The position numbers and the translations under genes are program-made. Of a stretch of 64,000 nucleotides of DNA, positions 4,600-13,210 are shown piece by piece (position 1 is the stretch's first letter; every line of letters begins with the position of its first letter). The notes below the pieces were generated by a model that made no database searches, was not told where the DNA came from, and was given only the letters and a program-made list of their open reading frames with translations. This DNA comes from Podarcis pityusensis (lineage: Eukaryota), in NCBI GenBank assembly GCA_964106645.2, contig OZ067038.1. One strand, 5' to 3'.

Positions 4600-5230
4600 A
4601 ATGAAGCCTCTGGCTGCGCGCTCTGGCTAAACTTTTGCATCGGCCACCTCTACTTCCTAACCCTAACCCCTCTTGCCCCGCACATGGAGGAGGCTTACTC
4701 AGAACCGGAAGTGAGGCATGAATGCGTGATCGTGAGCGGCGGAAACTGCGCTTTGAGACTCGTTGACCCATTCCCCACCCCCACCCCCGCCGCGCGAGAC
4801 ATCGCGAGAAGAGCGCGCTTCCCCGGTTCTTTTGTGAAAGCTCGCGAGAGAGGCCTCTCTCTCTTTCCCTCTGACTCTGGCCCAGCAAGATGGTAGGTAG
4901 CGATGCGGCGTGCTCGGCAGAGGCGGTTTTGCGGGGCTTCTCCGGCGCCTCTCCGCGCAGCGTGTGAGGAGGGCGGCTTCTGGCTTGAGGCCTGGGCCGG
5001 GGCCTTCCTCCTTCTCCCTCCTTCTGCTTCGTCCTGCAGTCGGAGAGAGGCGGAAAAAGGGAGCCCTTCCTCCTCTGTCCAGAGCCTCGTGGAATTCCCT
5101 GGAGCGGGACGTGGCAGCCGCATCCCCAGGACTGCGCCCCGTTTTTGTCCCCCCCCCTTTAATTTCTGCAAATAATTCCGAAATGGGCCACGTGCATCTC
5201 TGCCCGGCGGGGCGGGGGGAGGAATGTGGG
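4600..5230 (+). promoter_or_regulatory. RPL27A: RPL27A CpG-island promoter with 5'TOP start
   Basis: CpG-rich; ETS/GABP ACCGGAAGTG 4704-4713; TCGCGAGA (BANP/ZBTB33-type) at 4802-4809 and 4842-4849; polypyrimidine tract CCTCTCTCTCTTTCCCTCT about 4854-4872; YY1-like CAAGATGG over the ATG. Confidence 0.85.
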
Positions 5231-8200
5231 AACCCTGTATGCAAGAGACGGCTCTTGGACACCCCTTTCGGAAGAGGAAGGTTCCTCACTGCAGAGCACA
5301 TGGCCTGTAGAAGCTCTTCTCCAGAGTACATAGTACTTTTTTGGGGGGGGGGGAGCAGGGCCTAATAATAATAATACCCTGCCCATCTGGCTGGGTTTCC
5401 CCAGCCACTCTGGGCGGCTCCCAACAGAATATTAATAGTAATAATAAAAAAGCGATATATTCTTCCCGGCTAGAAAGACCACACAGCAGAAGCGTTTTCC
5501 TCCCTATTTTATTTAAAGTATTTATACACTGCCCCCTCATTGAAATGCCAAGGCAGTGTACAGTATATAAAATTAAAACAGCGTGGTAGTGTATTTGTTT
5601 CACTTACTCAAATCTTGTTGCGCAGGCTCAAGATGGCTAAGAGTATATTAGTGTAGGGGTGGGCTGACTTCAGTCGGTTGTTTTTTTGTTTTTGCTAGAT
5701 CCAGTTTATATTAAATTTGCAATGCAAGTGTGGCTATTCAGGACATTTTAATTTAAAGCATAACTGGGCAGTGTTAAATCTTAAGAGCCTAAGAAGTGCC
5801 TTGCTGGATCTGATTAGAATTAGAATCCCAGCAGCCAAGAGGTACCAGGTTATCTGCCAGCAACTGGTCAGAGGTCTACCTATGGAATATGATCTACCTT
5901 CTGTCCACCCCTATAAGCATAAACATAAAGAACCATATCAATGCCACAAAATGTAACATGCATTAAAAAAACCCACAGATATTTATATATTGAACACTTC
6001 TCTTTTTAAGCCTGCTCTTCAGCCTAAAAGCTGCCTATAGTAGCTTACAAAAATCAGTAATGAAACAGCCCCTGCTCTCAAGCTTACAAGTGAAAAATAT
6101 GATACAAAAGGGATTAGGAGAGATATTGGAAGAAAGCAGATGTGTTAGTTCTTAGTTACAGAGTTTTTATAACTAAACAGTTCATGAAAGGAGGAGCCAA
6201 AAAATTGCGTTCAAACCATTAGTGGGGAAAGGGGGTTGTGCTTAAATTGTTTCATCTGAAGTAGTGTGGTCTGGTAGGGGTTGATAGCCCTTTTACGTCA
6301 AGCATTGTTGTGTATGTTGTTCTCATATATATATATTTTACACAAGTCTAATCTTTTAAGCCTTCCAGACTGAGGAAGACCAGGAAACTGAGGGGTCATG
6401 TTAGCCATGGCCACGGCCGTATCGGTAAGTGTAGAGGATTATTTACTTTGTTGGTTTGTGCTCATTCATGGTTTCAGGATATCTTCTGCTTTATTACTAG
6501 AGTAAGTCATGTAGAGGATAACAGTAGTACTTGTAAGCTTCATTTTTAATACTTAGTTATTTTAAGGTTTGGCTATTTATTTCACAACCTTGACTGAAAT
6601 AAAACCAGAGTGCAGGGGAAAATGATGATGGTTATAGTGAGGTTGGGAAAGGCATGTAAATACCTAGAAATTGAAGTTGAATTCAAGGTTTTAATCTGTT
6701 CTTCATTTCTATTATAGGCAAACACAGGAAGCATCCTGGAGGCCGTGGTAATGCTGGGGGTTTGCACCACCACAGAATTAATTTTGACAAATAGTAAGCA
6801 TTTTTTCCTCATTTTTTGTTCCTTCTCAAGCATTTGATTATATAATGCAAAGAACAAATCCATAATAGGTACCAAAATAACCTTTACCACCCTGTAGATG
6901 TTAATTTTGTTAAATATAGGCTGAAGTGGAATCATAACCTACTCTAGCTTAGGGCCATGAGGCAGTCCATTACACTGTTTCTGGTGGACTTTTGTCCCAG
7001 TAAACAAGCGGAGGATTTCAGGTTTCATTTTGAATTAGGTATGCAAAGCTACTTATCTATACCAGAAGTGGCCTGTTTGGTGGGGTGAAGTTGCTACACT
7101 GCTGCAGTTTGCCTGGATAGGGTGATAGTGAGGTTGGGACTGTGTGTGTGTATGACCAGGAGCACCAGAATGTGTCCACAGCTCAGACTGCCACCATGCC
7201 AATGTCGGAAGGGCAGCTCAAACCCATCACATGGGCTGCTACTGATCTACAGCAATCGAGACTAGAGTCACATCTAGATATTCTCAGTTATCATGGTGTG
7301 CTATAGTACTCGAAGAGCAATAACTGACCTTTATTCACTGACTGCCCTATTCATAGTTCAGTCAGTCACCAGGTTAGTAACAGAAAACTCATATCCCAAA
7401 CTGGGAGGTGTGGGGCCACCAGGAGGATCGGTATCATCATTCTGCATGTCTTTGTAATGCTGAGTCAATGCTCTGATTTTCCAAAAGTGTTTGGTGAATT
7501 GCTGGAGTTGCTGCAAGGAAGCAAATAGAACTGTGTGTCTTTGACTGCTTTCATATAAAAAGCAAGAGCTTGGAGGACCTCCCATTGTAGCCACAGTTAA
7601 GGCAAATATTTATTGTTGGATCAACTACAGCTTTCCCTTTCCTTTAGAACAACATATTTTTTTGAAGTTGCTGTAGCTTGTCTTCTGTCACAGAATATTT
7701 GGGCATAAAAGTTACCTGTAGTGCAGAACCCCCTCCTGGCAAATTATAAATTTAGGGTGGTTTGTGTACAGCAGTGTGTGTAATGTCGTGTTTTATGGTA
7801 CTTTGGGCACCAGGCAGTGAAATACTGGGACAACTGTGTAAGGACACAGAAATAGACAGGGTTTTCCCCCCATCTGATTAGTTTGATTTTTGCTCTAGTT
7901 GATTACCTGGAACTAAATAAGTTATTACTTCGGACAATAAATACTCCTTACAACTCTGTATTTTCTTGTTCTTCACCTCTGTGGACCACATTAACTCAGT
8001 CTGAAAGTGGCTAGGAGACAATGTCATTGAGGTGTGTGTGAGGGAAATAAGCTGGGTACTAGTAGACTAGATATACCTTGCAATGGTTTTAAGCATAAAA
8101 AAACCTGACGAACCTGGCTAGAGAAATTTAAATGAAGACAATTTCTCATTCAGTAGGCTATGCATTTAATGTTATATACTTTGTATGTTCTCTAGCTAGG

Positions 8201-12492: not shown

Positions 12493-12609
12493 TAATTATA
12501 GGTACACAAGCTTCTTACTCATTTACTGTTTCAACCCAATACGCTAATTCTGTCTAGAACTGTAAACACATATTTTATTTCAGAAACAGAAAGACTCTCA
12601 CCAAAAAAT

Positions 12610-13210
12610 GATCGCGCGCCTGCTTGAACTTATTCGCTCCTTTTAAACCCTGCTCCCCGCTACTCACCACGTGAAAGGAAGAAGGGAAGCAGGAAGCGGA
12701 AGAAGACCTTCCTCAAGGAACCTCCCACAATGCTCTCAGGGTGCGTGCGGGGGGGGGGAGGGGCACATAGAACGGGAGAGAGAAGTGAAGCTCGGCCATT
12801 CCTGGAGCGGCAACACAGCCTGCACTTCCGGTGGCCATTGAAAGCCGTCACGCTGTGGTGTAACTGTGCCGCTCCAGCCCTGTGGCAGCTCTATGATAAA
12901 TGCCCGCTTTGCACTGGAGGGGAAGGGTGGGGCGGGAAACCAATCCAGGGATATACCGGAAGTTTTCGCTCTCATCGAAGTGTAACGCAGTTAGCGTCAG
13001 GAAGGCGATGACGTCACCTAGCTTTTGGTCTTGCCACTCAAGTGGGAGGAGAATTCAGCAGAGCCCCTGTTGAGGGCGGGAAACTTTCCTCAGCGCAAAA
13101 AAAAAAAAAAAAAAAAAGCAAGCTCCTAACACCTACCATTGGCTGATATATTTTTTAAAGAAAGGCTTCGCCTGTGGAGGTTTTCCCCTCTCCTCCCTTG
13201 AGCGTAGTGG
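12610..13210. promoter_or_regulatory. CpG-rich, probably bidirectional promoter (minus-strand snoRNA host; plus-strand TRIM66)
   Basis: Minus-strand TOP-like tract CTTCTTCCGCTTCCTGCTTCCCTTCTTCCTTT (12705-12674); ZNF143-like CTCCCACAATGC 12722-12733; ETS/GABP CACTTCCGGT 12823-12832 and ACCGGAAGT 12955-12963 in opposite orientations; GC boxes about 12930 and 13074; CCAAT about 12940; perfect CRE TGACGTCA 13009-13016. Confidence 0.75.

What the first reader, a model, noticed from the sequence alone, without database searches (positions are those of the whole stretch)
4850..13210. Functional RPL27A is inverted relative to the mammalian arrangement; the dead copy occupies the ancestral slot
Seen: DENND2B, RPL27A and TRIM66 are all on + here, and the degenerate RPL27A copy is on -, tail-to-tail with the functional one (3' ends at about 9975 and 11295) and head-to-head with TRIM66. 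Recalled, not verified: in human RPL27A is antisense to both ST5/DENND2B and TRIM66 and starts next to the TRIM66 5' end. Inference: an inverted tandem duplication made a new copy that took over protein function, while the original decayed but was retained because it shares the TRIM66 promoter and hosts a snoRNA.
Basis: partly seen in the sequence, partly recalled or inferred. Interest (0 to 1): 0.75.

Follow-up and report, generated by a model that had tools for sequence, protein, structure and literature searches.

The report
Ribosomal gene copy turned snoRNA host
In this lizard an intact ribosomal-protein gene (RPL27A) lies tail-to-tail with a wrecked, inverted copy that still carries an intact small guide RNA, and protein records from turtles and birds suggest the pair is likely an old reptile duplication whose mammal-like copy likely gave up protein coding here and was kept as a guide-RNA carrier.

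Summary
The layout is real. DENND2B, an intact 148-aa RPL27A and TRIM66 are on +. An inverted RPL27A remnant on - keeps a pyrimidine-rich first exon, a decayed exon 4 with its splice sites, and an intact SNORA3. In human, RPL27A is antisense to ST5/DENND2B (GENCODE rows), so the - remnant sits in the human-like orientation.

(1) The + orientation is not lizard-specific: fused gene models join DENND2B to RPL27A in a turtle and a songbird. (2) Sea turtles have two intact RPL27A genes between TRIM66 and DENND2B (accession order; strand of the second not seen). The duplication is therefore probably sauropsid-wide. (3) This genome has a third, intact, intron-bearing RPL27A on contig C6 (dS 0.72, dN 0.015), with look-alikes in other squamates.

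The remnant is best read as a non-coding SNORA3 host, not a dead gene. Not shown: TRIM66's start site (its first coding exon is 21.7 kb away) and the state in amphibians, so 'ancestral' means 'mammal-like'. It is a new variant of a known kind (RPL32P3/SNORA7B-like hosts).

The parts
86..815 (+). DENND2B (ST5) penultimate coding exons, 86-328 and 714-815; a last short exon begins near 2231
   Evidence: dDENN hit; turtle and bird DENND2B residues map here at 94-98%; frames
4501..5500 (+). CpG-island promoter of the intact RPL27A; pyrimidine tract before the ATG exon; homologous to the C6 promoter
   Evidence: CpG o/e 0.96 and 0.53; alignment to C6 promoter scores 76, 0 of 300 shuffles reach it
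4890..9927 (+). Intact RPL27A, 5 coding exons, 148 aa
   Evidence: identical to lacertid record P0074; all four joints seen in relatives' contigs; 4 of 5 retrocopies are closer to it than to C6
7255..7385 (+). SNORA3 in intron 3 of the intact gene; none found in intron 4
   Evidence: 100.5 bits; E-value scan of 4500-13500 finds no third copy
9954..9959 (+). Poly(A) signal of the intact gene
   Evidence: sequence; retrocopies match to 9972-9995
11290..11320 (-). Likely short last exon of the remnant, with AATAAA at 11316-11311; this genome has no AG at the exact joint seen in the relative, the nearest AG is 11309-11308
   Evidence: joint 11318/12076 in 1 of 4 runs
11901..12040 (.). Interspersed repeat inside the remnant's last intron
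   Evidence: 39 of 40 scored matches lie elsewhere in the genome
12077..12220 (-). Decayed RPL27A exon 4: 144 nt against 175, frame broken, AG acceptor and GT donor kept
12362..12492 (-). Intact SNORA3 in the position of RPL27A intron 3: H box, ACA box, two hairpins, both 28S guide pockets
   Evidence: 98.7 bits; fold z -3.3, 0 of 200 shuffles as stable; pockets
12668..12710 (-). Predicted first exon: C/T-rich (5'TOP-like) tract ending in GTG before a GTGAGT donor, where the intact genes have ATG before GT
   Evidence: sequence; side-by-side view; homology to the + promoter is weak (7 of 300 shuffles reach the score); its splice joint was not seen
12501..13080 (.). Single-copy CpG island with two ETS-type motifs, a CRE and GC boxes; likely promoter of the remnant and possibly of TRIM66
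   Evidence: the other CpG-rich spots before TRIM66's ATG (17.0 and 22.0 kb) are repeats
34346..34451 (+). TRIM66 exon with the ATG at 34443; its upstream part resembles the second half of the RING domain of turtle, crocodilian and bird TRIM66
   Evidence: E about 0.001
39399..39546 (+). TRIM66 B-box exon
   Evidence: PF25287

Best explanation
The minus-strand unit is a decayed inverted duplicate of RPL27A with an intact SNORA3, and it likely works as a non-coding snoRNA host left from a duplication that likely predates the turtle-lizard split. Shown: it keeps SNORA3 in the intron-3 position, a broken exon 4 with both splice sites, a CpG island and a TOP-like first exon, and it points the way human RPL27A does. 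Inferred: it is transcribed from the 12.7 kb island and spliced, SNORA3 is released from the intron, and SNORA3 guides the same two 28S pseudouridines as the other copies; the host RNA itself has only an 8-codon first frame. Inferred history: an inverted tandem duplication in early sauropsids gave a DENND2B-side copy (+) and left the TRIM66-side copy (-). Sea turtles keep two coding genes there. Squamates gained a transposed third copy (C6, between a ZNF831-like gene and an endothelin gene). In this lineage the - copy then lost exons 2, 3 and most or all of 5 but kept the parts needed to make the snoRNA. The snoRNA is the likely reason for retention; a shared TRIM66 promoter may add to it.
For: SNORA3 intact with both guide pockets complementary to this genome's own 28S rRNA, while the adjacent exon is broken. 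In relatives' contigs (RNA by guess; exon depth in the thousands, spliced joints, two flanking stretches at depth 0) one contig ends at 12222, 2 nt from the relic's acceptor, and one joint uses the relic's donor. The 12193-12572 piece differs at 5 of 352 letters, against 132 of 3410 in five intronic or intergenic pieces of the same run (p 0.016, weak). Human RPL27A is antisense to ST5. Fused DENND2B-RPL27A models exist in Chelonia (EMP38299) and Melospiza (KAF2977100). Chelonia EMP38297/98/99 are TRIM66, RPL27A and the fusion, each on a contig of 7,460,723 bp; a Caretta series runs TRIM66 CAM4575688, RPL27A CAM4575696, RPL27A CAM4575704, with two distinguishable proteins. SNORA3 distances: - copy to the others 0.21 and 0.27, + to C6 0.16; tree groups + with C6 (UFBoot 79), and K89-type 'like' proteins occur in iguanians and anguimorphs, so the - copy split off earlier than a duplication that itself is old. 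Human and chicken RPL27A carry two SNORA3; each lizard gene has one.
Against: Turtle order rests on accession numbers, and the strand of the TRIM66-side turtle copy was not seen. The two turtle proteins differ at only 3-4 residues, which also fits a young turtle-only duplication. The chicken catalogue lists two SNORA3, both inside RPL27A on one strand, and no opposite-strand copy. Only one crocodilian RPL27A type turned up. The - promoter is not clearly homologous to the + or C6 promoter and lacks their CGCGAGA motif. The first 48 nt of the relic are still 83% identical to the + exon, which is high for a very old pseudo-exon unless decay was late. Splicing evidence comes from relatives only, from one joint in 1 of 4 runs, and this genome lacks an AG at that exact joint. 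Two other intact SNORA3 copies exist, so the third may be dispensable.
Confidence: 0.68

Rival explanations
1. RPL27A was simply inverted in early sauropsids, so the + gene is the original. The - unit is a later partial duplicate (intron 3 to intron 4) that landed behind TRIM66's promoter and captured divergent transcription; the turtle pair arose separately.
For: Bird and turtle show the + orientation. No opposite-strand SNORA3 is listed for chicken. The - promoter and first exon are not significantly like the + ones, and exons 2, 3 and 5 are undetectable. The turtle copies are nearly identical as proteins.
Against: It needs one inversion plus two duplications into the same slot, one restoring the human orientation. 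The - SNORA3 is the most divergent of the three and branches outside + and C6. A pyrimidine tract ending in GTG before a donor sits where the ATG exon would be.
Confidence: 0.14
2. The inverted pair, or the + orientation alone, is older than the mammal-reptile split. Mammals lost the + copy, so the - slot is mammal-like but not the original.
For: The SNORA3 split is about 1.5 times as deep as the +/C6 split, which could reach the amniote stem. No amphibian or fish orientation was obtained.
Against: It needs an extra loss in mammals. No mammalian DENND2B-RPL27A fusion appears among 113 long RPL27A-containing proteins, which is weak evidence.
Confidence: 0.13
3. The remnant persists mainly because its promoter is TRIM66's promoter; the RNA and the snoRNA are passengers of divergent transcription.
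For: The 12.5-13.0 kb island is the only non-repeat CpG island between RPL27A and TRIM66's ATG. Two other SNORA3 copies could supply the guide.
Against: A promoter constraint does not explain an intact snoRNA 200-330 bp into the transcript with conserved pockets and kept splice sites beside a wrecked exon.
Confidence: 0.12
4. The arrangement is an assembly error (a mis-oriented block or a false duplication).
Against: The two SNORA3 differ at 24 of 130 positions, so they are not haplotypes. Contigs of related organisms are collinear over 8417-9827, 9964-10372, 10347-10925, 10224-12222 and 12193-12572. Turtle and bird models reproduce the DENND2B-RPL27A orientation. No N in the 104 kb examined.
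Confidence: 0.02

Closest known systems
Human RPL32P3, host of SNORA7B (PMC6509762, passages read)
   Same: A ribosomal-protein pseudogene that is transcribed and carries an H/ACA snoRNA in an intron, with a near-identical sister snoRNA (SNORA7A) guiding the same 28S sites.
   Different: That SNORA7A lies in RPL32, so that the host is the derived copy, is recalled. Here the decayed host is the copy in the mammal-like position, it is an adjacent inverted duplicate, and a likely counterpart still codes in turtles.
lncRNAs derived from genes that lost coding potential (Hezroni et al. 2017, PMC5577775, passages read)
   Same: A protein-coding gene decays and leaves a spliced non-coding RNA that reuses exons and a promoter, in one of their cases divergent from a neighbour.
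   Different: Those are mammalian cases; 'snoRNA', 'ribosomal' and 'RPL27A' do not occur in the main text. Here the protein is still made by paralogs and the retained cargo is a snoRNA.
Non-coding 5'TOP snoRNA host genes (SNHG1/UHG, GAS5; recalled)
   Same: TOP-like start, short exons, no long first frame, conserved intronic snoRNA beside poorly conserved exons.
   Different: Their protein-coding ancestors, if any, are not recognisable (recalled); here the parent gene is identifiable and next door.
SNORA3/SNORA45 family, Rfam RF00334, in RPL27A (PMC13736004 abstract and passages; PMC2653536 passages and supplement rows)
   Same: Same family, same intron-3 position, same predicted 28S targets.
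   Different: Human and chicken keep two copies in one gene (introns 3 and 4 in the chicken table); this genome has three copies, one per gene copy, one of them in a non-coding host. PMC13736004 describes SNORA3A as always in ribosomal-protein hosts.
DNA-mediated ribosomal-protein duplicates such as RPL22L1 and RPL3L (PMC4219774, passages read)
   Same: The C6 gene is an intron-bearing duplicate under strong purifying selection.
   Different: That paper counts 28 DNA-mediated events among 14,552 in its species set and does not mention RPL27A; the C6 protein differs from the + protein at only 4 residues.

Membership tests
SNORA3/SNORA45 H/ACA snoRNA (RF00334) | Score above the family's gathering threshold over the full model | tested here: met
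   98.7 bits against 51, positions 1-131
SNORA3/SNORA45 H/ACA snoRNA (RF00334) | Two hairpins, H box in the hinge, ACA three bases from the end | tested here: met
SNORA3/SNORA45 H/ACA snoRNA (RF00334) | Pockets complementary to the two 28S rRNA sites | tested here: met
   own 28S found (35 of 38 pattern matches identical; one locus checked as LSU rRNA); guide strands shared by all three copies
SNORA3/SNORA45 H/ACA snoRNA (RF00334) | Mature snoRNA accumulates and guides pseudouridylation | not testable with these tools
   needs small-RNA sequencing and pseudouridine mapping
Unprocessed (duplicated) RPL27A pseudogene | Homologous exon with intron boundaries kept and frame broken | tested here: met
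   exon-4 relic, score 80 against a shuffle maximum of 40; deletions break the frame
Unprocessed (duplicated) RPL27A pseudogene | Whole-gene copy including promoter and exon 1 | tested here: inconclusive
   first-exon shape fits, but 7 of 300 and 92 of 300 shuffles reach the promoter scores; exons 2, 3, 5 not found
Non-coding 5'TOP snoRNA host gene | Spliced transcript from the snoRNA's strand | tested here: inconclusive
   one joint at the relic's donor in 1 of 4 runs of relatives and a contig end at its acceptor; contigs give no strand; first joint not among the 15 of 22 joints shown
Non-coding 5'TOP snoRNA host gene | Transcript starts with C and a pyrimidine tract | not testable with these tools
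   tract present at 12710-12671; start site unmapped
Non-coding 5'TOP snoRNA host gene | No conserved protein frame | tested here: met
   first ATG gives 8 codons; longest frame 86 codons, far downstream in the unspliced form
Bidirectional promoter pair with TRIM66 | Divergent start sites within 1 kb | not testable with these tools
   single CpG island present; TRIM66 start site not mapped; ATG 21.7 kb away

The most novel reading that the evidence does not exclude
A roughly 300-million-year-old inverted RPL27A pair shows the birth of an SNHG-type gene in stages. Both copies code in sea turtles, birds kept only the new one, and in squamates a transposed third copy took over the second protein dose. 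That freed the original, mammal-orthologous gene to collapse to promoter, snoRNA intron and splice sites, restoring the second SNORA3 that human and chicken keep in intron 4. The gene called RPL27A in birds and lizards would then be a paralog, not the positional ortholog, of human RPL27A.
Probability: 0.4. Interest if true: 0.7.

Novelty: new variant of a known kind. Interest (0 to 1): 0.55.

Why it matters
Where non-coding snoRNA host genes come from is usually untestable because the ancestor is unrecognisable. Here the parent gene, the decayed host and a lineage where both copies appear to code can be compared directly. It is also an exception to the rule that vertebrate ribosomal-protein genes stay single-copy: lacertids, probably many squamates, and sea turtles each have two coding RPL27A genes, by different routes. 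In practice it flags hidden paralogy in a gene used as an ortholog and as an expression reference, and a transcribed unit that protein-based annotation misses.

Tried and rejected
No run listed for the locus is on record as RNA; this is no evidence either way. In one search, 12746-13708 has no cover in any of 4 runs and 12104-12745 none in 1 of 4; lack of cover says nothing about TRIM66's start or about silence. A SNORA3 pattern scan of metagenome contigs gave 2 loci, both fish-like with the snoRNA in a different ribosomal-protein gene (read by eye as RPS5), so no amniote outgroup. A search for long RPL27A-containing proteins gave 113 hits; only the same turtle and bird models carry DENN domains, and the one fish fusion was uninformative. 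Xenopus SNORA3 rows give four places on chr7 without strand or host. Human TRIM66 had no row in 12 of 15 supplement files of PMC6585903 or in 4 files of PMC7817982; the three unsearched files may bear on it. No SNORA3 in intron 4 of the + gene or the remnant. Pfam scan of 122 of 146 + strand frames at 12.8-39.4 kb (repeat regions left out) found only the TRIM66 B-box. No retrocopy of the remnant's RNA was seen, but a repeat filled 39 of the 40 scored matches. A resemblance of the remnant's last exon to the start of exon 5 was considered; it did not score above shuffles. Dating from proteins was rejected: too few variable sites. Earlier scan notes held nothing on this locus.
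Full report
1. What is in the window. The window is G000:C1:70,060,001-70,124,000 of a 1.5-Gb genome. Its RPL27A protein is identical to a record shared by Lacerta and Podarcis, so this is a lacertid lizard. DENND2B ends on + near 2.3 kb. RPL27A follows on + with five GT-AG exons and a 148-aa frame and SNORA3 in intron 3. TRIM66 is on +, with its ATG at 34443 and its B-box exon at 39399. Between them, on -, lie a second SNORA3 (12492-12362, 98.7 bits) and a relic of exon 4 (12220-12077) that scores 80 against a maximum of 40 in 100 shuffles; the other exons give nothing above shuffles. 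Upstream is a C/T-rich tract ending in GTG before a donor at 12667, inside a single-copy CpG island.

2. The remnant is dead as a protein gene, probably not as an RNA gene. The relic is 144 nt against 175 and its frame is broken, yet the acceptor and donor remain. The snoRNA folds into two hairpins (z -3.3) with H and ACA boxes. All three SNORA3 copies of the genome (3 of 3 matches) keep guide strands complementary to the genome's own 28S rRNA; 8 of 31 consensus pairs show a two-sided change across the three lizard and two fish copies. Four runs of related organisms (RNA by guess, contigs only) show all four joints of the + gene, a 2,063-nt contig from 10224 that stops at 12222, next to the relic's acceptor, and one joint from the relic's donor to 11318 in 1 of 4 runs. 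Contigs give no strand, start or level, 7 of 22 joints were not displayed, and this genome has no AG at that exact joint. The snoRNA-bearing piece is more conserved than five intronic or intergenic pieces of the same run (1.4% against 3.9%, p 0.016; counts taken, test).

3. A third copy. Exon 4 has 7 matches in the genome: itself, five retrocopies and an intron-bearing gene on C6. The C6 gene has the same five exons, an intact frame, 4 amino-acid differences, dS 0.72 and dN 0.015, its own SNORA3, a promoter homologous to the + one and one retrocopy of its own (1 of 5). Loose ends in relatives' contigs match its exons 1, 3 and 4 (compared by eye). It lies between a ZNF831-like exon and an endothelin exon (145 longest of 382 frames scanned, an automatic name), so it is the transposed one. 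It is annotated in Podarcis as 'L27a-like'. Proteins sharing its K89 are recorded for Anolis, Sceloporus, Pogona, Phrynocephalus, Varanus and Elgaria; for Sceloporus, Elgaria and P. lilfordi the contig length differs from that of TRIM66, and for Pogona and Varanus from that of the N89-type gene. Two geckos have such an unlinked gene without K89. Contig length is an indirect marker.

4. Outgroups. GENCODE rows in a supplement of PMC6585903 give human RPL27A on + and ST5 on -, with SNORA45A and B on +: human is convergent, like the - remnant. TRIM66 on - is recalled; the table only shows a + strand antisense RNA just upstream of RPL27A. Among 53 proteins found with exon 4, two carry DENN domains: Chelonia EMP38299 and Melospiza KAF2977100. 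Both join DENND2B's exons to RPL27A's, and map exon by exon onto the + strand of this window. They are mis-fused gene models, but one frame lies on one strand, so turtle and bird have a co-oriented RPL27A behind DENND2B. Chelonia EMP38297, 98 and 99 are TRIM66, a separate RPL27A (N38) and the fusion (M38, K139); a Caretta series gives the same order with two full proteins. So sea turtles seem to have two coding genes where the lizard has one gene and one remnant. The strand of the TRIM66-side turtle gene is unknown. Chicken has two SNORA3, both in RPL27A on one strand (PMC2653536). No amphibian or fish orientation was obtained.

5. Relative age. SNORA3 distances are 0.16 (+ to C6), 0.21 (+ to -) and 0.27 (C6 to -); with two fish copies as outgroup the tree joins + and C6 (UFBoot 79; 5 shared derived sites against 2 and 0). 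This rests on 130 columns. It places the local duplication before the C6 one, which already spans lacertids, iguanians and anguimorphs. The 83% identity at the relic's 5' end suggests that the - copy went on coding for much of that time.

6. Mechanism and rivals. Best reading (0.68): an early sauropsid inverted duplication; later decay of the mammal-like copy into a SNORA3 host, perhaps once C6 supplied a second coding gene. Rivals: a plain inversion with later re-duplication, making the - unit the derived one (0.14); a pair older than mammals (0.13); retention by TRIM66's promoter alone (0.12, partly compatible with the best reading); mis-assembly (0.02).

7. Against what is known. It works like RPL32P3 with SNORA7B (PMC6509762, passages) and like lncRNAs that are fossils of coding genes (PMC5577775, passages). 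It passes the sequence tests for SNORA3 and for an unprocessed pseudogene; the host-gene tests that need transcript ends are open. Ten searches of the held library (listings and abstract starts only) showed no paper on RPL27A duplication or orientation in reptiles; the library lacks most subscription journals. PMC13736004 (abstract, passages) treats SNORA3A hosts without lizards; PMC3744548 (one passage) only places the genes on 11p15.4; PMC6158594 (passages), PMC6984369 (passages, supplement rows), PMC4219774 (passages) and PMC7817982 (supplements, no hit) add context. The coding genes are already annotated; the remnant, and the reading across lineages, were not found in print.

8. Verdict. 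Real, not lizard-specific, and a new variant of a known kind. Interest 0.55; 0.7 if the staged history holds.

Noticed in passing
G000:C6:12,880,578-12,888,778 (L018, L019): Second intact, intron-bearing RPL27A with its own SNORA3 and retrocopy, between a ZNF831-like gene and an endothelin gene; dN/dS about 0.02 against the window's gene.
   Followed up: yes
window 34346-34441: The TRIM66 ATG exon begins with a decayed-looking second half of the RING domain that turtle, crocodilian and bird TRIM66 records still have; lepidosaur records start after it (Pfam columns).
   Followed up: partly
P0072, P0075, P0349 (sea turtles): The TRIM66-side turtle RPL27A has Asn at position 38, next to His39, recalled as the residue hydroxylated by MINA53/RIOX2; other records have Met or Leu.
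   Followed up: no
P0032 (Natator, 'uL15-like'): The M38-type turtle model ends in an aberrant C-terminus, which could mean that the DENND2B-side copy is decaying there, the reverse of the lizard, or an annotation error.
   Followed up: no
L024:607-735 and L025:1592-1722: Fish-like contigs carry SNORA3 in two introns of another ribosomal-protein gene (read by eye as RPS5); Xenopus has four copies in two pairs 263 kb apart on chr7.
   Followed up: partly
window 15100-17600 and 46055-50210: A LINE-1-like fragment on - (similar copy on C6) and a long reverse-transcriptase-like retroelement frame on + inside TRIM66 (named by eye).
   Followed up: no
window 4800-4850 and G000:C6:12,880,490-12,880,540: Both coding genes have tandem CGCGAGA palindrome-like promoter motifs (BANP/ZBTB33-type, name recalled); the remnant's promoter lacks them.
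   Followed up: partly
G000 contigs C115, C118, C138, C151, C208, C323 and others: rDNA arrays with a period of about 15-17 kb.
   Followed up: no
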